Virus record (IMG/VR): IMGVR_UViG_3300042879_005846
From: an uncultured virus (IMG/VR IMGVR_UViG_3300042879_005846)
Taxonomy: Duplodnaviria > Heunggongvirae > Uroviricota > Caudoviricetes
Direction: 5' to 3' (one strand)
Length of the DNA stretch: 20,000 nucleotides
Of this stretch, positions 1,617 through 20,000 are shown in pieces. The position numbers and the translations under genes are program-made. The notes beneath the pieces were generated by a model that saw nothing but the letters and a program-made list of their open reading frames with translations, was not told the origin of the DNA and did no database searches. Every line of letters starts with the position of its first letter. Position 1 is the stretch's first letter.

Positions 1617-1649
1617 GATTTTCACCAATAATCTCAATATATACACCAT

Positions 1650-6127: not shown

Positions 6128-6349
6128 ATGAAAAAATACGATGTTAAATCAGCCTCAATTGTTTATGTTGTTTGGTGTATTATGTCTTACTTTGTAGCGT
6201 CCTTCTATGTTTGGCAATGGAACCCAGGTCTTTGGCCACAAGAACACAGGGATGTTATGACTATGTTTGGACCTATCTTTGGGATTTTTATTTTCCTAAG
6301 TGTACTTTTCTGGGATGAAATCTTCAAAGAAGAAAGTCCTGAAATCTAA
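6128..6349 (+). CDS. small two-TM membrane protein
   Basis: Two hydrophobic segments flanking WQWNPGLWPQEHR. Confidence 0.75.
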   Translation: MKKYDVKSASIVYVVWCIMSYFVASFYVWQWNPGLWPQEHRDVMTMFGPIFGIFIFLSVLFWDEIFKEESPEI

Positions 6350-7055
6350 TAATACTTTCTTTGACTATATCAAAGAATTCTTTATCAAAATCCTTCATGT
6401 CTTTTTTGTAGCCAGCTTTGGTTTCATCTTTAACATCATCAGTCCATTGATAAGACCAAAATAAATCTTTGGGGGTTTTAAATCCAAAAAAATCTAAAAC
6501 CTCCTTTTCATGATCCACAGCTTGTTTACCATTCCAATTGTGACCAACTGAAATAACACCACAATCTATATTTTTTATGATATTAGATTCACCTAAAGTA
6601 GCGTGTCTGTTTTCCAACCAAGTCAATCTCTCAATTAATTTAGCATATACTGCATTCATTTTACCCCATCTAATTGAACCAAAGAAAATAACAGCATCAG
6701 AATCTAATAATTCATTGACAACTTTATACAATTCATCATCTTCATTGTTAAATGAAGCCCAACATCTGTGTTGACCAGTTTTGTCCTTACCATTTTTAAG
6801 TAAAGCTTCTTTTATACCACAGTGATTTCCAGTTTTTGAACTAACATTACCTTCACATTCATATATTTTTAGTTTAGAAACATCAATTATTGTTACTTTA
6901 TTTGGTCCAAGTCTTTCTTGTAACCAATAAGCTAATGATGAAGATTTTGGAGTATCATCTTTATGACCAGACCATCTGTTTGATGTCAATAGAAATAGAA
7001 TTCTTTCCTTGTTTTCAAGGTACTTTAAGGTTTTATCCAATTTTTGTTTTGACAT
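6324..7055 (-). CDS. flavodoxin-like NAD(P)H-dependent FMN reductase / iron-sulfur flavoprotein-like protein
   Basis: LLTSNR phosphate-binding loop; Cys motif CEGNVS..CG...RCW; DAVIFFGSIRWG; LIERL. Start moved to 7055 (MSKQKL), which has AATATATA 5 nt upstream and avoids overlap with the divergent gene. Confidence 0.8.
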   Translation of the reverse strand: MSKQKLDKTLKYLENKERILFLLTSNRWSGHKDDTPKSSSLAYWLQERLGPNKVTIIDVSKLKIYECEGNVSSKTGNHCGIKEALLKNGKDKTGQHRCWASFNNEDDELYKVVNELLDSDAVIFFGSIRWGKMNAVYAKLIERLTWLENRHATLGESNIIKNIDCGVISVGHNWNGKQAVDHEKEVLDFFGFKTPKDLFWSYQWTDDVKDETKAGYKKDMKDFDKEFFDIVKESIIRFQDFLL

Positions 7056-7056
7056 A

Positions 7057-7088
7057 TTTGTATATATTAAATAAAAGTTATATATTTG
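7057..7088 (+). promoter_or_regulatory. Bacteroidota sigma-A-type promoter overlapping a divergent AATATATA motif
   Basis: TTTG (7057-7060)-N20-TATATTTG (7081-7088), before the ATG at 7093. Confidence 0.7.
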
Positions 7089-7092
7089 TGGT

Positions 7093-7278
7093 ATGGAAAT
7101 AACAGAGAAAATTGAACTCAATAAAAAAATAAAAAATTATTCTGGTGATAATAATTTTTTATTATCTTTACAGAAACAATTAAAGACAAGTAAATATCTT
7201 CAAAAAGTTGAAGTTGGTAGCAAGTCTTTCAAAATTCTTAGTGAAAAACAATATTTAGTTTCAAAATCTTTACTCTAA
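7093..7278 (+). CDS. small basic hypothetical protein
   Basis: 61 aa Lys-rich ORF behind a consensus promoter. Confidence 0.7.
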   Translation: MEITEKIELNKKIKNYSGDNNFLLSLQKQLKTSKYLQKVEVGSKSFKILSEKQYLVSKSLL

Positions 7279-7928: not shown

Positions 7929-7945
7929 AAGGTATATATTTTTAC

Positions 7946-9553: not shown

Positions 9554-9617
9554 ATATTCTAAAACTATAAAAGGTTAAGTAAGTATAATATTATTATGAA
9601 TATTGAATTGCAATACT
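9554..9617 (+). repeat. direct repeat copy B (functional thyA upstream region and start)
   Basis: 56/64 identical to 8655-8718; offset 899 bp. Confidence 0.9.
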
Positions 9618-10678
9618 TAGAACTTCTTAAAGATATATTAGAAAATGGTTGTTCGAAAGGTGATAGGACTGGAACAGGAACTATCTCAGTCTTTGGAAGA
9701 CAAATCAGACACAAAATGTCAGAAGGATTTCCACTTCTCACAACTAAAAAAATGTATTTCAAAGGGGTTATTACAGAACTTCTTTGGTTTTTGAGAGGTG
9801 ATACAAATATCAAATATCTTTTGGACAATGATTGTCATATTTGGGATGGTGATGCTTTCAAAAACTTTATGACTAAAAGTGAAGGAGATCCTGATTTGAT
9901 TTGGAATAAAGAACAATTTATTTTGAAAGTCAAAAATGAAAAGGATTTTGGTAAAAAATGGGGCGAATTGGGCTCCGTGTATGGCGCACAGTGGAGAAGT
10001 TGGAAACATATGGGACCTAAATCTCAACAAGAGATGTTAGATGAGAATACCAATTGGCCTTGGAAAACAACAGAAATAGACCAAATTTCAAACCTAATTA
10101 ACGACCTTAAAACAAATCCTGATAGTAGACGATTAATGGTTTCTGCTTGGAATGTAGGTGAATTAGATCAAATGGTACTCCCACCTTGTCATTATGGATT
10201 TCAAGTTTATACAAGAGAGTTGAGTGCTCAAGAAAGATTAGAATGGGTTAAGGTGAATTTTCCAAACCTTGATGTGAACGGTTTTGTTAATAACGATGAG
10301 TATAGTCATAAGTGGGTAGAAACATTAAGTGGCAATATACCAACCAGAGCAATCTCTTTAATGTGGTCACAAAGATCGATCGATAGTTTGCTCGGCTTGC
10401 CGTTTAATATAGCTTCTTACGCAACCCTACTTGAAATCTTAGCAAAAGAAGTTAATATGGTACCAGATGAACTTATTGGGAATCTTGGAGATTGTCACAT
10501 TTATAGTAACCACATTGAACAAGTAAAAGAACAGATTTCAAGAACACCACATAAATTACCAACCCTAAAATTCGAAGTTACAAATCTACTTGAAAATTTA
10601 ATGGATTGGAAACCATCAGATTTTTCAATATTAAATTATGAATCTCACCCAGCTATAAAAGCCCCACTTAGTAACTAA
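9596..10678 (+). CDS. thyA: thymidylate synthase
   Basis: DRTGTGT, FPLLTTKK, ELLWF, YG.QWR, DSRR, LPPCH (catalytic Cys), QRS.D..LGLPFNIASY, GDCHIY.NH; contains in-frame insertions. Confidence 0.97.
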   Translation: MNIELQYLELLKDILENGCSKGDRTGTGTISVFGRQIRHKMSEGFPLLTTKKMYFKGVITELLWFLRGDTNIKYLLDNDCHIWDGDAFKNFMTKSEGDPDLIWNKEQFILKVKNEKDFGKKWGELGSVYGAQWRSWKHMGPKSQQEMLDENTNWPWKTTEIDQISNLINDLKTNPDSRRLMVSAWNVGELDQMVLPPCHYGFQVYTRELSAQERLEWVKVNFPNLDVNGFVNNDEYSHKWVETLSGNIPTRAISLMWSQRSIDSLLGLPFNIASYATLLEILAKEVNMVPDELIGNLGDCHIYSNHIEQVKEQISRTPHKLPTLKFEVTNLLENLMDWKPSDFSILNYESHPAIKAPLSN

Positions 10679-10681
10679 AAC

Positions 10682-10710
10682 AAAAAACCCACTTTAAAGT
10701 GGGTTTTTTT
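10682..10710. terminator. bidirectional intrinsic terminator
   Basis: Perfect palindrome AAAAAACCCACTTT/AAAGTGGGTTTTTT between convergent genes. Confidence 0.9.
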
Positions 10711-11519: not shown

Positions 11520-11556
11520 ACTTTATATATTAGTTATGGTTTATTTAAATCATTAT

Positions 11557-13314: not shown

Positions 13315-13378
13315 TTTATTAAATAGTTTTTTTTATATATTAAATTCAGTCAATTAGAAGAAAAATGATATAATAAGG

Positions 13379-13771
13379 ATGAAAGAATTATCATTTAAAA
13401 ATTCCTCAATTGAAATAGATCCATTGAAAAGTCATAAACCTTTATCAAAAGGAATGACTACTCTGGAAGGACAAATCCATAATAGTGCTGACCAACTATT
13501 AGAACAAATGGAAATTCTAGCAAAAAGAGCTAGAGATATACAAGAGAGAAAAAGGATTTCTAAAATAATATATGACTCTAAAATTGGATTTGACCCTTTA
13601 GTTAAAGGCATTTATCATCTTTATATTCTTAATAATTATCAATTTATATCATTAATTGGACCTAATGAATGGGGTAAGAAAAAAATGGATTATGTAGCAA
13701 CCATTCAGTTGGATTATGACCACACTTGGGAGATTTTAGAACTAAACAAAAAAGATTTCTTTAATATATAA
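13379..13771 (+). CDS. DUF2452-like protein
   Basis: Coiled coil followed by IY...FDP....YHLY...FISLIGPNEW...LDYDHTW pattern. Confidence 0.7.
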   Translation: MKELSFKNSSIEIDPLKSHKPLSKGMTTLEGQIHNSADQLLEQMEILAKRARDIQERKRISKIIYDSKIGFDPLVKGIYHLYILNNYQFISLIGPNEWGKKKMDYVATIQLDYDHTWEILELNKKDFFNI

Positions 13772-14049
13772 TAACCCTCCAAAGTTGCAGATTTAAGGAG
13801 TCAAAAAAATAAAAATGCGAGTTATAGGAGTTGGACATACTTATAACAGTTGCTGTTGCCTGTCAGCAAGATACCAAGTAACTATGGTTATATAATTTGG
13901 CAGTCCTGAAATAGCTCCTCAATGGATGGTTACTTAGTCACTAGCTCTTGGGTGATAAATTGAGGATACTTTTTTTTGGGATTATTATATATGGCCCAAT
14001 ATTAGTCAGTCCTGTTGTCCCAGAACAGTGAAGAGCGACTGACTTTTTT
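13772..14049 (+). ncRNA. candidate structured non-coding RNA (family not recognised)
   Basis: Longest stretch in the window without a substantial ORF; visibly GC-richer than its flanks; at least five local stems and two long-range complementarities; begins after AATATATA and ends in a stem plus T6. Confidence 0.6.
14004..14049 (+). terminator. terminator-like bulged hairpin
   Basis: AGTCAGTC/GACTGACT stem with inner CTGTT/AACAG, followed by a T run. Confidence 0.6.
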
Positions 14050-14069
14050 ATAAAAATAAATTTCATATT

Positions 14070-14264
14070 ATGAAAAAATTTCTCCTAATATATTTTTTAA
14101 CTTTTTTATTGATATATTCTGTAAGATTCTTTTTAGATAATCATTTTCTTGGTCTACCATTAAGTGATTTTTTTCTGGTTGATATTTATGATTTTTTTGT
14201 ATTAATTTTTGTAACTTACACAATTACTTATTTAATTTATCATAAAATTTATAATAAAAATTAA
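14070..14264 (+). CDS. small two-TM membrane protein
   Basis: 64 aa, very hydrophobic. Confidence 0.6.
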   Translation: MKKFLLIYFLTFLLIYSVRFFLDNHFLGLPLSDFFLVDIYDFFVLIFVTYTITYLIYHKIYNKN

Positions 14265-14946: not shown

Positions 14947-15165
14947 ATGTCAGATTATGTAAACTATCCAAATCCAAATAAACTTTATAGACACTATAAA
15001 GGTGGTCTTTATAGAGTTCTTTTTCTGTCTAAGCACACTGAAAGTGGTGAGATATTAGTGAATTATCAATCTGTGATTTTTGGATCTTATTATTCAAGAC
15101 CATTAGAATCATGGAATGGAAAAACAGATCAAGGTTTATACAGATTTCAAGAAATTATAGACTAA
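14947..15165 (+). CDS. DUF1653-like protein
   Basis: YRHYKGGLYRV...HTESGE.LVNYQ...SRPL...RF. Confidence 0.85.
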   Translation: MSDYVNYPNPNKLYRHYKGGLYRVLFLSKHTESGEILVNYQSVIFGSYYSRPLESWNGKTDQGLYRFQEIID

Positions 15166-15587
15166 TGAAAGATATTTTAGAACTAATAAAATTAGAAGGA
15201 GACCATAAGAAATGGTTATACACTTGTATAAATGGATTACAATTTGATTGTTCTATTTTCAGAAACCCAAGGGGTGGACATCTTTGTGGTTATGTTGCAT
15301 TGACTACAGACAATGATTTCTTTGGAAAAAATTATGATGATATTCCAGTAAGATGTCATGGTGGGTTAACTTACGCTTCTGAAAATGGTGATAATTGGGT
15401 AATTGGGTTTGATTGTGCTCATTATGAAGATTTACAACCATTCTATACTGACCAAGAGATATATAATGATAATAGAGTTTATAAAGATATGAATTTTGTA
15501 ACTGAGGAATGTGAATCTATCTGTGAACAAATTTCAGAAAAAAGTAAAGCCCACAAAAGAACAAAAAAAATAAATGAATTAATATGA
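15165..15587 (+). CDS. conserved phage-type hypothetical protein (HGGLTY/GFDCAH motifs)
   Basis: HLCGYV, CHGGLTY, IGFDCAH; start at 15165 (TAATG coupling) preferred to 15111. Confidence 0.8.
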   Translation: MKDILELIKLEGDHKKWLYTCINGLQFDCSIFRNPRGGHLCGYVALTTDNDFFGKNYDDIPVRCHGGLTYASENGDNWVIGFDCAHYEDLQPFYTDQEIYNDNRVYKDMNFVTEECESICEQISEKSKAHKRTKKINELI

Positions 15588-16476: not shown

Positions 16477-16908
16477 CTATTTATAAACTTTGAATGGTGC
16501 TTTTCTTACCTTATAACCATCATAATCCTTTTTAAAATCTTCAAGTCTTGGTTCAATATCATCTGATTTAATAATCCAAAACTGAGCACCAGCTTGCATT
16601 GCCCTAGTTTGTTCTTCTGGTTCATTTGAAGATGAAATAATTCCTATAACAACATTATTACCATAATCAAAGTTAATCTTTCTAATCAGTTCAATCCCAT
16701 CAACAGAAGAACCAATGATATTCAAATCAACAAATACACATTCTGGTCTTCCACTAGAATCTTTCTGCCATTTTTTAAATAATACCTCACACTCATCAGT
16801 GGTATTTAGTGTCTGTAAAGACAACGTGATGTCCAATAAGGAACATGCATCTTCGAAAACCAAATGAAAAAGGCTTTCATCATCAATTAATAACATAGAA
16901 TCAATCAT
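16477..16908 (-). CDS. single-domain response regulator (receiver)
   Basis: LLIDDE acidic pocket, VFVD61 phosphoacceptor, DGIEL, ISSS, AGA, IIK; no output domain. Confidence 0.9.
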   Translation of the reverse strand: MIDSMLLIDDESLFHLVFEDACSLLDITLSLQTLNTTDECEVLFKKWQKDSSGRPECVFVDLNIIGSSVDGIELIRKINFDYGNNVVIGIISSSNEPEEQTRAMQAGAQFWIIKSDDIEPRLEDFKKDYDGYKVRKAPFKVYK

Positions 16909-16911
16909 AAC

Positions 16912-17634
16912 TTATACGTAAATAAAATTTATTTTTTTTGTTTGCATCTTTCTCTTAAAATATGAATAACCCATTTCAATTGAATTTGCAGCTTCTTTTA
17001 AACTAGTATAAAAAATACCTGTCAGTACATTTAATACTAATTTAGCATTAGAATTTTCACCTAACTTTCTTTTGCCCTTTTTTGAGGCACTCATTTTTTC
17101 CTTTGATTCAGTTGAAAAAGATTTCCCCTTGTTCCATGAACTTCTACCTTTTGAATTCAAGGACATCTTAATCTTACTTTCTTCACTATGTGTTTTCCCT
17201 AACCTAGCTAGTCTGATATTCTCTCTATGATTTTCTGATTTTTTGACACCAATAGTAGAAAGACTCTGTTTTATTCTGGACTCTTCACTTCTTTTCTTAC
17301 CCCTATTACCAGTGCCCAATAAAAATTTAGTTTCATCAGTTATTACTTTATTGAAAGTCCCCTCACCACCATCAGTCATATTAGACAAAATACCAGTATT
17401 ATTATTAATTCTACCATAGTATTTTATCAAATCTTTCTCTATTTGACAAGCAATTTCCCAATCAATATCTTGGTGTAATATTTCCACTACTATTTCTGTC
17501 TTTTCGCTTATCCTATTCCAAATTTCATTTCTTTCTGATAATTTATTAGCTCTATAAAAATCCATGTCACTACCAATACCAATATAAAATGGTTGATTTT
17601 TATCTTTCCTTATATGTTGATAAACATAAGCCAT
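16912..17634 (-). mobile_element. free-standing GIY-YIG homing endonuclease with NUMOD3 repeats
   Basis: YVY...FYIG...R, E..LI..YG, N.TDGGEG; four G(K/V)xxSxExxxxxS/R repeats; C-terminal YTSLKEAA (NUMOD1-like). Confidence 0.85.
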
Positions 17635-17638
17635 TTAT

Positions 17639-19078
17639 TTATCTTATTTTTATTTTTAACTTTGTACCAACAGGTTCTAACTTTTCAGAAGTTATTGAGA
17701 ATCCATGCTCCTTCAAGATCGCTAAACTTATGTTCAAACCTATCCCATCACCAGTCTCTTTTTGACCTTCTCTTCTGACATAAGGTTTGGATAAGTGTAG
17801 AAACTCTTCTTGAGTCATACCCCTTCCATTGTCTTCTATACATATATATTCATCTTCTGAATAAATTTTTATCATTTTATTTTCAGAATCATTATATTTT
17901 AAACCATTCTTTATTAGGTGATCTATAGCTATATCAAATAAATAACCATTCATCTCTAAATTTGGTAAATTTTCTGATAATTCTACTTGGTTTTTGTATG
18001 CAGTAGTATCTAAAAATTTATCTAAAGAATCTTTAATATTTAAATTTTCTTTTTCTAAAACAGTTTCTCTTTTAACTAAATTAGAAAAGTTATAAATTTC
18101 TTTATAAACCTTTTGTGTATGACTCAAACCCTCTTTTAACATTTTTAAAGGTGCTTCAATCTTCAAGTTTTTAATATCTTCTTCTGTTAATCTTTTTTCT
18201 AAAGAACTTAAACCTCTTGGCATATAAGTGTTTATGCCAGAGTGCATATCATGTCTTATTAATCTAGCTGAGTATTCTAAGAAACCATTCTTAGATTGTA
18301 TATCATCAAATTGTTTTATTATTTCACTATTTAACTTATCAATTTTCCTCCTTTGTATTAAGTTTCTAGTAATCAATCCTATTATAGTAGATAATATAGT
18401 AATTAATAAAGCAACTAATATTAACCAGTTTTTATAAAGGTCAACTTCAATTTTCAAATCTTCCCTCTCAATAACAGTTTCTTGTAATTGTTTTTCCTTT
18501 TTCAATAAGTGAACTGCTCTTTCTTTAGCTTCTTTCATTGGTTTACTTTCAACAGAATCATTTTTTGATTCAGACAATAACTGATGTAATTGTTCATCAA
18601 CCATTTTCAGAGTTTCCTCAGCTCCTTCCTTCGATAAACCATGATAATTAATCTTGGAAAGGTTCCTAAGAATATTAGATGTTCTTGTACCAAGTGCTTT
18701 TTCCATTAAGGAATCACTTATTGGATCTGCAACTTTTTTCTTATTTTTATTTGATTCAAATCTAACTAAATCATCCTTTGCTAAACCCCTATAATAATAA
18801 GCATCTACATAATTTGGATTTATTTTTATTGCTTTACTGAAGTCTGATATAGCTCCTTTATAATCTTTCAATTTATGTTTAGCACAACCCCTATAAAAAT
18901 AAGCATCAGCGTAATCAGGATTAATTTTTATAGCTTTTGAGTAATCACTTATGGCAGCCTTATATTCATCTTTATTAGTTTCCTCAATACCATTATCAAA
19001 GTAAGTAGTATCATTCTGCGCATTTATATTTATAATAAAGAATGATAAAAATATTATAATCAGATTTATCTTAATCAT
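17639..19078 (-). CDS. membrane sensor histidine kinase with extracytoplasmic TPR repeats
   Basis: Signal peptide, about 2.5 TPRs (AISDYSKAIKINPDYADAYFYRG), TM helix, H-box RHDMHS, N-box HLIKNGLKY, G1 DNGRG, G2 GDGIGL. Confidence 0.9.
   Translation of the reverse strand: MIKINLIIIFLSFFIININAQNDTTYFDNGIEETNKDEYKAAISDYSKAIKINPDYADAYFYRGCAKHKLKDYKGAISDFSKAIKINPNYVDAYYYRGLAKDDLVRFESNKNKKKVADPISDSLMEKALGTRTSNILRNLSKINYHGLSKEGAEETLKMVDEQLHQLLSESKNDSVESKPMKEAKERAVHLLKKEKQLQETVIEREDLKIEVDLYKNWLILVALLITILSTIIGLITRNLIQRRKIDKLNSEIIKQFDDIQSKNGFLEYSARLIRHDMHSGINTYMPRGLSSLEKRLTEEDIKNLKIEAPLKMLKEGLSHTQKVYKEIYNFSNLVKRETVLEKENLNIKDSLDKFLDTTAYKNQVELSENLPNLEMNGYLFDIAIDHLIKNGLKYNDSENKMIKIYSEDEYICIEDNGRGMTQEEFLHLSKPYVRREGQKETGDGIGLNISLAILKEHGFSITSEKLEPVGTKLKIKIR
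18791..18967. repeat. 102-bp-period degenerate repeat encoding tandem TPRs
   Basis: 18791-18866 aligns with 18893-18967 (34-codon offset). Confidence 0.75.
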
Positions 19079-20000
19079 ATTTAATTTTTAATTTTGTACC
19101 TCCCTCCTCAAGTTTTTCAGCAGTTATTTCAAATCCATGTTCATCTAAAATAGCCTTACAAATGTTTAGTCCCAAACCAGTTCCTGTTTCTTTCTGACCT
19201 TCTTTTCTAACATAAGGTTTGGATAAATGTTCAAAATCTTTTTGATCTATACCCCTACCATTATCCTCAACCATAATATAATTATTACCGTCAATAACTT
19301 CTGAATAAATCTTTACAAATTTAGAATCACTATCATTATATTTTAATCCATTTCTTATTAAATTATCTACTGAAGTACAGAATAGTGCTTCATTAACTTC
19401 AATTGTTGGTAAGTTATCATCTAAAAGAACTTGTGACTTATAAGAAGTGCTTGATAAATAATCATTTAATATTCCTTTTATATTACATTCAGCCTTACTT
19501 AATAATACATCTTTCTTTACCAAGTTAGTGAACTCATAAACACCCTTATAAACTTTCTGCGCATGTTTAAGACCTTCTCTAATCATTCTCAAAGGTGCTT
19601 CTATTTTTAAATTATGTACTTCTTCATCACTTAACCTTCTATCTAATGAAGACATACCTCTTGGAATATAAGTGTTAATACCAGAGTGCATATCATGTCT
19701 CAAGATTTTAGCTGCGTGTTCAAGGTAGGTATTTTTCTTTTCTATTTCTTTAGATTGCAATACTTTTTCTGTTACATCTTGACAAATCTTCATTATTTTA
19801 TATGGTTTACCATCAAATCCAATAATAGGGTTATAAGAAGATTGTAACCAAACAATACTACCATCTGATTTTACCCTAGTACACTCACCAGTTACAAAAT
19901 TACCTTCCCTTAATTTTTCCCAGAACTCAATATACTCTTGAGATTTTTTATATTCTGTTTCCACGAACATAGAGTGGTGCTTACCTACTATATCTTCTTG
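19071..20000 (-). CDS. PAS/PAC-domain sensor histidine kinase (5'-truncated by the window edge)
   Basis: Frame stays open upstream of 19970 (QEDIVGKHHSMF, a PAS motif); FWEKL..G, DGSIVWLQSSYNPI, QDVT; RHDMHS, NLIRNGLKY, DNGRG, GTGLGL. Confidence 0.93.
   Translation of the reverse strand, partial: QEDIVGKHHSMFVETEYKKSQEYIEFWEKLREGNFVTGECTRVKSDGSIVWLQSSYNPIIGFDGKPYKIMKICQDVTEKVLQSKEIEKKNTYLEHAAKILRHDMHSGINTYIPRGMSSLDRRLSDEEVHNLKIEAPLRMIREGLKHAQKVYKGVYEFTNLVKKDVLLSKAECNIKGILNDYLSSTSYKSQVLLDDNLPTIEVNEALFCTSVDNLIRNGLKYNDSDSKFVKIYSEVIDGNNYIMVEDNGRGIDQKDFEHLSKPYVRKEGQKETGTGLGLNICKAILDEHGFEITAEKLEEGGTKLKIKYD

What the first reader, a model, noticed from the sequence alone, without database searches (positions are those of the whole stretch)
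13772..14049. Candidate novel multi-stem, pseudoknotted ncRNA
Seen local stems: GTTATAGG 13821-28/CTTATAAC 13840-47; TTGCTG 13850-55/CAGCAA 13864-69; TCCTCAAT 13916-23/ATTGAGGA 13959-66 enclosing TCAC/GTGA; TTGGG 13976-80/CCCAA 13995-99; AGTCAGTC 14004-11/GACTGACT 14037-44 with inner CTGTT/AACAG. Seen long-range pairs: AAGTAACTAT 13876-85 with ATGGTTACTT 13926-35 (10 bp, one G-U), and loop GCTCTT 13944-49 with bulge AAGAGC 14031-36. The element starts after AATATATA (13763-70) and ends in T6. I recognise no tRNA, tmRNA, SRP or ribozyme consensus. Inference: a separately transcribed structured RNA.
Basis: partly seen in the sequence, partly recalled or inferred. Interest (0 to 1): 0.75.

Follow-up and report, generated by a model that had tools for sequence, protein, structure and literature searches.

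The report
New structured phage RNA, function unknown
A roughly 270-base stretch between two genes of a lake-water huge-phage relative encodes a conserved RNA whose many-stemmed, knotted fold has been kept by evolution; it matches no known RNA family and its job is still unknown.

Summary
Folding energy gives no support: whole-element z = -0.9, and only the 3' hairpin stands out.

Comparative evidence is strong. Four metagenome contigs carry the element in the same gene order. Its nucleotide identity to two of them (81%, 79%) exceeds that of both flanking genes.

Of 351 pair cells in my 12-helix model, 97.7% pair. Eleven pairs change on both sides, which no shuffle of 500 reached; slid controls gave 0-4. 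One of the eleven is an alignment artefact.

There are 26 G-U and 0 A-C cells, so the + strand is the RNA. The small ORF is broken in two homologues.

No Rfam family, tRNA or tmRNA matches.

A 9-mer that elsewhere in the window sits only just upstream of start codons abuts the 5' end. A hairpin plus U-run closes the 3' end. Two contigs from an RNA library cover the core.

Best reading: a stand-alone, compactly folded ncRNA of a new family. A cis-acting leader for the downstream genes is the main rival.

The parts
13763..13771 (+). AATATATAA, a promoter-like 9-mer. It overlaps the last codons and the stop of the DUF2452 gene and ends 5 nt before the first covarying pair.
   Evidence: AATATATAM occurs 7 times in the window against 2.25 expected; 1 of 200 shuffles reached 7. 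The other 6 copies lie 3-22 nt upstream of a same-strand start codon. The copy at the element is invariant in all 5 sequences. Its role as a promoter is inferred.
13777..13800 (+). S1, pseudoknot stem: 13777-80 (CUCC) pairs with 13797-800 (GGAG), which lies in the loop of S2.
   Evidence: 4 pairs, all cells paired. The outer pair is C-G in 3 sequences, U-A in 1 and A-U in 1 (helix 1).
13785..13820 (+). S2 hairpin: 13785-89 with 13816-20, and 13792-95 with 13810-13, with an A-rich strand at 13801-09. Together with S1 it forms an H-type pseudoknot.
   Evidence: 9 pairs, all cells paired. Two pairs change on both sides (C-G to U-A; U-A to C-G in 2 sequences) and two change on one side (helix 2).
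13821..13847 (+). P1 hairpin, 13821-28 with 13840-47, with an invariant 11-nt loop AGUUGGACAUA.
   Evidence: 8 pairs, all cells paired. One pair changes on both sides and one on one side (helix 3). 0 of 11 loop columns vary in the 4 full-length sequences.
13850..13869 (+). P2 hairpin, 13850-55 with 13864-69.
   Evidence: 6 pairs that never vary in 5 sequences, while 4 of 8 loop columns vary. It is conserved, but covariation says nothing for or against it.
13871..13891 (+). P3 hairpin, 13871-76 with 13885-91, with loop AGUAACUA.
   Evidence: 7 pairs, 96.9% of cells paired, 3 pairs with changes on both sides (helix 5). The stems read ACCA/UGGU, GAACA/UGUUC, CGCCA/UGGUG and UGGAA/UUUCA in the different sequences.
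13892..13915 (+). Single-stranded linker with a conserved GUCCUG core.
   Evidence: 10 of 24 columns vary, but GUCCUG is kept. Seven listed differences of a second variant in an RNA-library contig fall here.
13916..13966 (+). P4 (13916-23 with 13959-66), enclosing the 3' strand of K1 and the P5 hairpin (13937-42 with 13951-56, loop AGCUCUUG).
   Evidence: P4 has 8 pairs, 3 of them changed on both sides: UCCUCAAU/AUUGAGGA against CCUUUAAU/AUUAAAGG. P5 has 6 pairs, 4 changed on one side, all cells paired (helices 7 and 8). Two broken P4 cells in L005 come from a 1-nt misalignment.
13877..13934 (+). K1, a loop-to-linker contact: P3 loop 13877-84 with 13927-34. The conserved core is 13878-83 with 13928-33.
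   Evidence: 8 pairs, 6 never vary, the 2 end pairs are broken in L005, and there is no covariation (helix 6). A run this long arose in 85 of 1000 shuffles of the unpaired segments. Plausible, not shown.
13944..14036 (+). K2, a long-range contact: P5 loop GCUCUU (13944-49) with AAGAGC (14031-36) in the internal loop of the 3' hairpin.
   Evidence: 6 pairs, all cells paired, and 2 pairs change U-A to U-G on one side (helix 9). Plausible, not shown.
13976..13999 (+). P6 hairpin, 13976-80 with 13995-99, with an AU-rich loop of varying length.
   Evidence: UUGGG and CCCAA are present in all 4 full-length sequences, with loops of 13-16 nt. The tool's 'change on both sides' and its 2 broken cells here are alignment artefacts (helix 10).
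14004..14049 (+). P7 (14004-11 with 14037-44) enclosing P8 (14012-16 with 14024-28), then a U-run at 14044-49. This is the terminator-like 3' end.
   Evidence: 13 pairs, nearly invariant, with one U-U cell in L005 (helices 11 and 12). It is the only sub-domain with a notable MFE z of -2.56, 3 of 200 shuffles. All 4 full-length sequences keep a run of at least 5 T after it.
13379..13771 (+). Upstream gene: a 130-aa protein with a DUF2452 match.
   Evidence: Pfam PF10504, E = 3.4e-10. It was used to find the homologous loci.
14070..14264 (+). Downstream gene: a 64-aa hydrophobic ORF that starts 20 nt after the U-run.
   Evidence: ORFs of 67 and 72 aa sit at the same place in L005 and L003. Nucleotide identity to the window is only 63-64%.

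Best explanation
The + strand of about 13777-14049 encodes a roughly 270-nt non-coding RNA of a family not yet described. It is carried by a small clade of lake-water relatives of huge phages.

What is shown: the RNA folds into a 5' H-type pseudoknot (S1/S2), three hairpins (P1-P3), a P4/P5 domain, a P6 hairpin and a branched 3' hairpin (P7/P8) followed by a U-run.

What is inferred:
- Two 6-bp contacts (P3 loop to the P4 interior; P5 loop to the P7 internal loop) tie the domains into one compact body.
- Transcription starts a few bases after the AATATATAA motif, so that the RNA begins at S1.
- Transcription ends at the P7 hairpin and U-run, giving a discrete stable RNA.
- That RNA acts as a folded RNA in its own right, for example as a protein-binding scaffold or decoy during infection. 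The invariant 11-nt P1 loop is the most likely contact surface.
- It does not act as a switch for its neighbouring genes.

My confidence that this is a genuine selected RNA structure is about 0.9. The figure given below is for the stand-alone reading as a whole.
For: Homologues: the element sits in the same gene order in 4 of the 6 metagenome loci found through the upstream protein. Three copies are complete and one is cut by its contig end.

Conservation: its nucleotide identity to L003 and L005 is 81.4% and 78.8%. The DUF2452 gene gives 78.9% and 73.4%, and the downstream ORF 64.1% and 63.1%.

Structure:
- 80 pairs, 351 cells, 97.7% paired.
- 11 pairs change on both sides. The shuffle mean is 5.6, and 0 of 500 shuffles reached 11. 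Sliding partners by 1-3 columns gave 0-4.
- The covariation score is 0.170, against 0.039-0.051 for the slid versions.

Where variation falls: 31 of 132 helix columns vary, against 62 of 125 unpaired columns.

Strand: 26 G-U cells and 0 A-C cells.

Not coding: the ATG at 13815 is ATA in L003 and is followed by a stop in L005. No open frame in any of the six frames is kept across the homologues.

5' end: the exact motif AATATATAM occurs 7 times against 2.25 expected. The other 6 copies are 3-22 nt upstream of start codons.

3' end: the hairpin has z = -2.56 and a conserved U-run. A canonical hairpin-plus-U terminator between convergent genes near 10682-10710 shows that such signals are used in this genome.

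No switch: I found no conserved alternative pairing for either P7 strand (read).

Expression: two contigs of an RNA-library run, representing two sequence variants, cover 13849-13945. The tool warns that DNA can be present in such a library.

Composition: G+C is 37% in the element against 29% for the window.
Against: - Thermodynamic stability is no better than shuffled sequence for the whole element (z = -0.89) or for most sub-domains.
- Full-length MFE folds of the homologues disagree with each other outside P1-P3.
- Only 5 sequences are available, 2 of them 98% alike, so there are about 4 lineages and no formal power for R-scape.
- The structure was derived from these same sequences, which inflates the share of paired cells.
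- One of the 11 compensatory pairs (in P6) is an alignment artefact.
- K1 and K2 have no two-sided covariation.
- The promoter role of the 9-mer is not shown. At the element it also encodes the conserved C-terminus (F-N-I-stop) of the upstream protein, so its conservation there is explained twice over.
- The downstream ORF starts 8-20 nt after the U-run without a 9-mer of its own. That would fit a leader function.
- No transcript ends have been mapped.
Confidence: 0.55

Rival explanations
1. The element is a cis-acting 5' leader, either riboswitch-like or a protein- or RNA-controlled attenuator. The folded domain senses a signal, and the P7 hairpin with its U-run then ends transcription or lets it pass into the 64-aa membrane ORF and the glycosyltransferase-like gene behind it.
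For: - The element is on the same strand as the downstream ORF and lies directly upstream of it. That ORF starts 8-20 nt after the U-run in the window, L003 and L005.
- That ORF has no exact AATATATAM motif of its own.
- The K2 pairing links the sensor-like P5 loop to the interior of the terminator hairpin.
- Terminated leaders also accumulate as short RNAs, which would fit the RNA-library contigs.
Against: - There is no conserved alternative (antiterminator) pairing. The only one I found, 13936-49 with 14031-44 (12 of 14 pairs in the window), is not kept in L003 or L005, where the changes preserve P5 instead (read).
- No riboswitch family matches, even at E up to 10.
- The downstream genes suggest no ligand.
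Confidence: 0.25
2. The element is the structured 3' untranslated region of the DUF2452 mRNA. It is co-transcribed with that gene and serves as a terminator and a block to exonucleases.
For: - The element begins 1 nt after the stop codon.
- The 9-mer at its edge can be explained by coding alone.
- The 3' hairpin plus U-run is terminator-like.
Against: - Twelve helices with conserved loops, among them an invariant 11-nt loop, are far more than a terminator needs.
- The element is better conserved than the gene it would serve.
- DUF2452 homologues in L006 and L007 lack the element.
Confidence: 0.12
3. There is no selected RNA structure: chance stems in a slowly diverging spacer, or a small protein-coding gene.
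For: - MFE z-scores are not significant.
- There are few sequences.
- A 26-aa ORF with an AAGGAG upstream exists in the window.
Against: - Compensatory changes exceed all 500 shuffles and all six slid controls.
- There are 26 G-U cells and 0 A-C cells.
- The ORF loses its start codon in L003 and gains a stop in L005.
- The spacer is more conserved than the coding flanks.
Confidence: 0.05

Closest known systems
Candidate structured RNAs of viruses and phages found by comparative genomics (Fremin, Bhatt and Kyrpides 2023, PMC10690425; I read only the abstract and outline)
   Same: An intergenic, covarying RNA structure in a phage genome, with no assigned function and only limited hints of transcription.
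   Different: That survey screened public viral sequence sets. Four exact or degenerate patterns taken from this element found nothing in IMG/VR. I could not check their motif list, so overlap is not excluded.
Large ornate phage-associated RNAs GOLLD and ROOL (Rfam families; properties partly recalled, and the abstract of bioRxiv 10.1101/2024.12.08.627333 seen in the listing)
   Same: Phage-borne, many-helix, pseudoknotted RNAs with a stand-alone gene, complex tertiary contacts and unknown function. A lake-water origin is shared with GOLLD.
   Different: This RNA is about 270 nt, whereas those are roughly 2-3 times longer by my recollection. It matches neither Rfam model, and no tRNA genes are nearby.
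phi29-type packaging RNA (pRNA; properties recalled)
   Same: A phage-encoded, separately transcribed, stable structured RNA whose function depends on 4-6 bp loop-loop pairings.
   Different: No Rfam match of any kind. The phage type is different and the RNA is longer. Whether K1 forms within one molecule or between molecules is unknown.
Transcription-terminating riboswitches and attenuator leaders
   Same: A folded domain with a pseudoknot, followed by a hairpin, a U-run and a gene on the same strand.
   Different: No conserved antiterminator, no match to any known aptamer class, and downstream genes that give no hint of a ligand.

Membership tests
Any Rfam 15 family (4227 models) | A covariance-model score at or above the family's gathering threshold. 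| tested here: not met
   There were 0 matches at gathering score in the whole window. At E up to 10, the element gave one 16.9-bit minus-strand hit to a plant-virus leader, against a gathering score of 40. The homologous loci gave 4 hits, none of them consistent with one another.
tRNA / tmRNA | A cloverleaf or tRNA-like domain detectable by ARAGORN. | tested here: not met
   0 genes found in the window.
H-type pseudoknot (structural class) | Two stems in crossing topology, each supported independently. | tested here: met
   S1 (helix 1) and S2 (helix 2) cross. Both are 100% paired in 5 sequences, with 1 and 2 pairs changed on both sides.
Intrinsic (Rho-independent) terminator | A stable hairpin immediately followed by a U-run. 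| tested here: inconclusive
   P7/P8 has z = -2.56 and is followed by at least 5 U in all 4 full-length sequences. Termination itself was not tested.
Transcription-attenuating riboswitch | Conserved, mutually exclusive terminator and antiterminator pairings. | tested here: not met
   The only alternative partner for the 3' strand of P7 (13936-49) is specific to the window. L003 and L005 break it while keeping P5 (read from the alignment).
Transcription-attenuating riboswitch | Specific binding of a small ligand by the aptamer. | not testable with these tools
   This needs in-line probing or ITC.
Independently transcribed small RNA gene | Its own promoter and mapped primary 5' and 3' ends. | tested here: inconclusive
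   A start-codon-associated 9-mer sits at the 5' edge. RNA-library contigs cover 13849-13945, but contigs cannot show ends or strand.
Base-pairing (antisense) sRNA | A conserved unpaired seed with complementary target sites. | tested here: inconclusive
   The complement of the P1 loop gives 13 matches at up to 2 mismatches, against 9.0 expected; 31 of 200 shuffles did as well. Only the 20-kb window could be searched, because no whole genome is held.
Small protein-coding gene | An open frame with a start codon kept across homologues. | tested here: not met
   The 26-aa frame starting at 13815 has ATA in place of ATG in L003 and a stop at codon 2 in L005.

The most novel reading that the evidence does not exclude
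The RNA is the founding member of a new class of compact, tertiary-locked phage RNAs with an activity of their own, rather than a passive regulator. It could be a new ribozyme. It could also be an RNA that assembles into homo-oligomers through the K1 and K2 six-base contacts formed between molecules, as recently seen for much larger ornate phage RNAs. It would be expressed from a late-type promoter together with structural genes.
Probability: 0.15. Interest if true: 0.85.

Novelty: new variant of a known kind. Interest (0 to 1): 0.6.

Why it matters
Huge phages and their relatives carry many genes that reshape host translation and metabolism, but their non-coding RNAs are almost uncharted. This is a small, well-delimited RNA with about twelve helices and a pseudoknot supported by covariation. 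It also has two candidate long-range contacts and an invariant 11-nt loop. It is short enough for direct chemical probing, cryo-EM and activity screens. If it proves to be a stand-alone RNA, it adds a new family to the short list of complex-folded phage RNAs whose functions are an open question. If it proves to be a leader, it would be a new regulatory RNA class with an unusual link between sensor and terminator.

Tried and rejected
**More homologues**
- Three exact or degenerate patterns and one 41-mer from the element found 0 matches in IMG/VR. One pattern found 0 in the genome collection.
- The P2 pattern found 33 viral loci and 120 genomic stretches, of which 80 were fetched. Covariance model R1 found no real match in any of the 113 fetched loci. 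The other 40 stretches were not seen.
- R1 found nothing in the two huge-phage records nearest to the window, in a Flavobacterium phage, or in the contig behind L001. The one hit, 13 bits over 31 nt, is a fragment.
- blastn against phage records gave one 28-nt chance hit.
- The neighbouring proteins gave no syntenic locus in IMG/VR or in phage records.

**Other dead ends**
- No whole genome is held for the window.
- Earlier notes of this scan held nothing on this element.
- The Mimivirus-type promoter AAAATTGA is not enriched: 5 found against 7.2 expected.
- RNAalifold's long-range helix 13779-83 with 13898-902 is not fully paired in 3 of 5 sequences and competes with S1, so I dropped it.
- The window-specific antiterminator-like pairing 13936-49 with 14031-44 is not conserved.
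- The 11-mer AGTCCTGAAAT recurs at 6335, but 37 of 200 shuffles had at least 2 matches.
- Whole-element MFE folds of the homologues were not consistent with each other.

**RNA run X20**
- No contig lay on the flanking genes.

**Literature**
- Two full-text searches turned up no description of this element. That does not show it is unpublished.

**Neighbouring proteins**
- PDB and PHROG searches of the neighbours gave no functional lead.

Full report
**The observation**

The region 13772-14069 is an intergenic gap. It lies between a 130-aa gene (13379-13771, +; Pfam DUF2452, E = 3.4e-10) and a 64-aa hydrophobic ORF (14070-14264, +). So are the AATATATA before the element and the T-run after it. 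The element has 37% G+C against 29% for the window, and its immediate flanks drop to 13-28%.

**The genome**

The window is AT-rich and phage-like.
- Its thymidylate synthase is closest to two uncultured huge phages of 635 and 642 kb, and to Flavobacterium phages.
- A 413-aa protein matches only those two huge phages, at 39-41% identity.
- A collagen-repeat protein matches tail-fibre PHROGs.
- No whole genome is held for the window.
- A lake-water run (X9) holds a 679-nt contig across the element, with 15 differences and 2 gaps.

**Known families and thermodynamics**

Rfam 15 gives no hit at gathering score in the window. It gives nothing meaningful at E up to 10 in the element or in the homologous loci. 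ARAGORN finds no tRNA or tmRNA.

Folding energy does not support a structure.
- The whole element gives z = -0.89 on the + strand and -0.79 on the - strand.
- Sub-domains give z between -0.03 and -1.5. The exception is the 3' hairpin, at -2.56 with 3 of 200 shuffles folding as well.
- Full-length MFE folds of the homologues agree only on P1-P3.

**Homologues**

Using the DUF2452 protein as bait, the single metagenome scan returned six loci. Four carry the element directly behind the gene:
- L002: 98% nucleotide identity.
- L003: 81%.
- L005: 79%.
- L004: cut by the contig end after about 130 nt.

The two more distant protein homologues, L006 and L007, have no element. Gene order is kept: collagen-like gene (-), DUF2452, element, small membrane ORF, glycosyltransferase-like gene, DUF1653.

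The element is better conserved than its coding neighbours.

| Region | Identity to L003 | Identity to L005 |
|---|---|---|
| Element | 81.4% | 78.8% |
| DUF2452 gene | 78.9% | 73.4% |
| Small ORF | 64.1% | 63.1% |

**Structure**

I read the helices from the alignment. I then built covariance model R1, re-aligned the five sequences to it, and counted pairs for a 12-helix model that includes three crossing pairings.

The whole-structure results:
- 80 pairs and 351 cells, 97.7% of them paired.
- 11 pairs with changes on both sides. The shuffled mean is 5.6, and 0 of 500 shuffles reached 11.
- Covariation score 0.170, against 0.096 for the shuffles.
- Sliding the 3' partners by 1-3 columns gives 34-45% paired, 0-4 compensatory pairs and scores of 0.039-0.051.

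The compensatory pairs are spread over several helices.

| Helix | Pairs changed on both sides |
|---|---|
| S1 | 1 (C-G, U-A and A-U all seen) |
| S2 | 2 |
| P1 | 1 |
| P3 | 3 |
| P4 | 3 |
| P6 | 1 (alignment artefact) |

The P6 case is an alignment artefact, because UUGGG and CCCAA are present in all four sequences. The honest count is therefore 10. Two of the 8 unpaired cells, those in P4 of L005, are also due to a 1-nt misalignment.

P2, P7 and P8 are almost invariant, so covariation says nothing about them.

Variation is concentrated outside the helices: 62 of 125 unpaired columns vary, against 31 of 132 helix columns. The 11-nt P1 loop does not vary at all.

The differences seen in further variants in sequencing runs, where listed, fall in loops and linkers. 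This holds for X9 record 20, X4 record 12 and the second X20 variant (compared with the model).

Three caveats apply. There are only five sequences, two of them near-identical. The model was derived from those same sequences. The shuffle test ignores phylogeny.

**Strand and coding**

The model has 26 G-U cells and no A-C cell, so it works only on the + strand.

The window has AAGGAG, an ATG at 13815 and a 26-codon frame. In L003 the ATG is ATA, and in L005 the second codon is a stop. The GGAG of that apparent ribosome-binding site is the 3' strand of S1, and it covaries to GGAA and GGAU together with its partner.

The 10-bp pairing overlaps P3. What survives is a contact between the P3 loop and 13927-34. 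Its 6-pair core is invariant and its two end pairs are broken in L005 (helix 6).

The GCUCUU/AAGAGC pairing is kept in all four sequences, with two one-sided U-A to U-G changes (helix 9).

I shuffled the unpaired segments to gauge chance. A run as long as K1 appeared in 85 of 1000 shuffles. Four or more 6-bp Watson-Crick runs appeared in 6 of 1000, though part of that count comes from A-runs pairing with U-runs. Both contacts are plausible tertiary links. Neither is shown.

**The ends**

The 9-mer AATATATAM occurs 7 times in the window, against 2.25 expected; 1 of 200 shuffles reached 7. Six copies lie 3, 3, 4, 5, 18 and 22 nt upstream of a same-strand start codon. The seventh ends 5 nt before the first covarying base pair of the element.

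One-mismatch versions show no such link to start codons. Only a subset of genes has the exact motif, and the collagen-like tail-fibre gene is among them. This fits a class-specific promoter with very short leaders better than it fits a general translation signal. That reading is an inference. At the element the motif also encodes the end of the upstream protein, so its conservation there has a second explanation.

At the 3' end, P7/P8 plus a U-run resembles an intrinsic terminator. A textbook bidirectional terminator sits between convergent genes near 10682-10710.

Two 99-nt contigs from an RNA-library run, representing two sequence variants, cover 13849-13945. Contigs show neither RNA ends nor strand, and DNA carry-over cannot be excluded.

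**Mechanism**

I looked for the signature of a switch and found none. The one alternative partner of the P7 3' strand (13936-49, 12 of 14 pairs in the window) is not kept in L003 or L005, where the changes preserve P5 instead.

Several features point to an RNA that functions as a folded object and is made as a discrete molecule:
- the constitutive-looking terminator;
- the involvement of that terminator hairpin in K2;
- the invariant P1 loop;
- the promoter-like motif at the 5' edge.

I put that reading at 0.55. A cis-acting leader for the downstream membrane ORF and glycosyltransferase-like gene is at 0.25. A structured 3' UTR of the DUF2452 mRNA is at 0.12. No function, or a coding function, is at 0.05.

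What the RNA binds or does is unknown. I found no enriched target for the P1 loop in the window.

**Comparison and novelty**

The element belongs to no known family that I could test; the membership table lists each test. In kind it resembles the many candidate structured RNAs reported from phage genomes (PMC10690425, abstract and outline only). In complexity it resembles ornate phage RNAs such as GOLLD and ROOL, but it is much smaller and unrelated by model search.

I could not find it in IMG/VR, in the nearest huge-phage records, or in two literature searches. I could not inspect published motif lists.

I rate it a new variant of a known kind: a new family of phage structured RNA. Interest is moderate to high because the fold is unusually elaborate for its size and can be tested directly.

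Noticed in passing
window 1636-1644(+), 7060-7068(-), 7078-7086(-), 7932-7940(-), 11523-11531(-), 13333-13341(-): The exact 9-mer AATATATA(A/C) lies 3-5 nt upstream of the start codon for four genes, and 18-22 nt upstream for two copies. This suggests a class-specific promoter that gives leaderless or near-leaderless mRNAs. The homologous loci carry it at the same two places.
   Followed up: partly
window about 10682-10710: A perfect hairpin flanked by an A-run and a T-run lies between the convergent thymidylate synthase gene and a 102-aa gene. It is a canonical bidirectional intrinsic terminator.
   Followed up: no
window 9596-10678: The thymidylate synthase is 360 aa but spans a 266-position Pfam profile end to end, so it carries an insertion of roughly 90 residues. 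The Flavobacterium phage homologues are longer still.
   Followed up: no
window 16477-20000 (-): Bacterial-type signalling genes in a phage-like contig: two adjacent paralogous histidine-kinase genes (one with TPR repeats, one with a PAS domain) and a response-regulator receiver gene. They are separated by a homing-endonuclease-like gene that matches only the NUMOD3 motif in Pfam.
   Followed up: no
window 15111-15587: The listed 158-aa ORF overlaps the DUF1653 gene by 55 nt. In L005 the homologue starts at the internal Met (MKDILELIK...) right at the stop of DUF1653. The true start in the window is therefore probably near 15165.
   Followed up: partly
window 6335-6345 and 13902-13912: The 11-mer AGTCCTGAAAT from the element's conserved linker recurs once on the same strand, where the ends of two ORFs (6128-6349 + and 6324-7121 -) overlap. 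This is compatible with chance: 37 of 200 shuffles had at least 2 matches.
   Followed up: yes
window 13967-13975; L003 and L005 at the equivalent places: A U-rich tract follows P4 in all full-length copies. The P4/P5 domain plus this tract could act as a second, internal terminator, giving a shorter RNA of about 200 nt.
   Followed up: no
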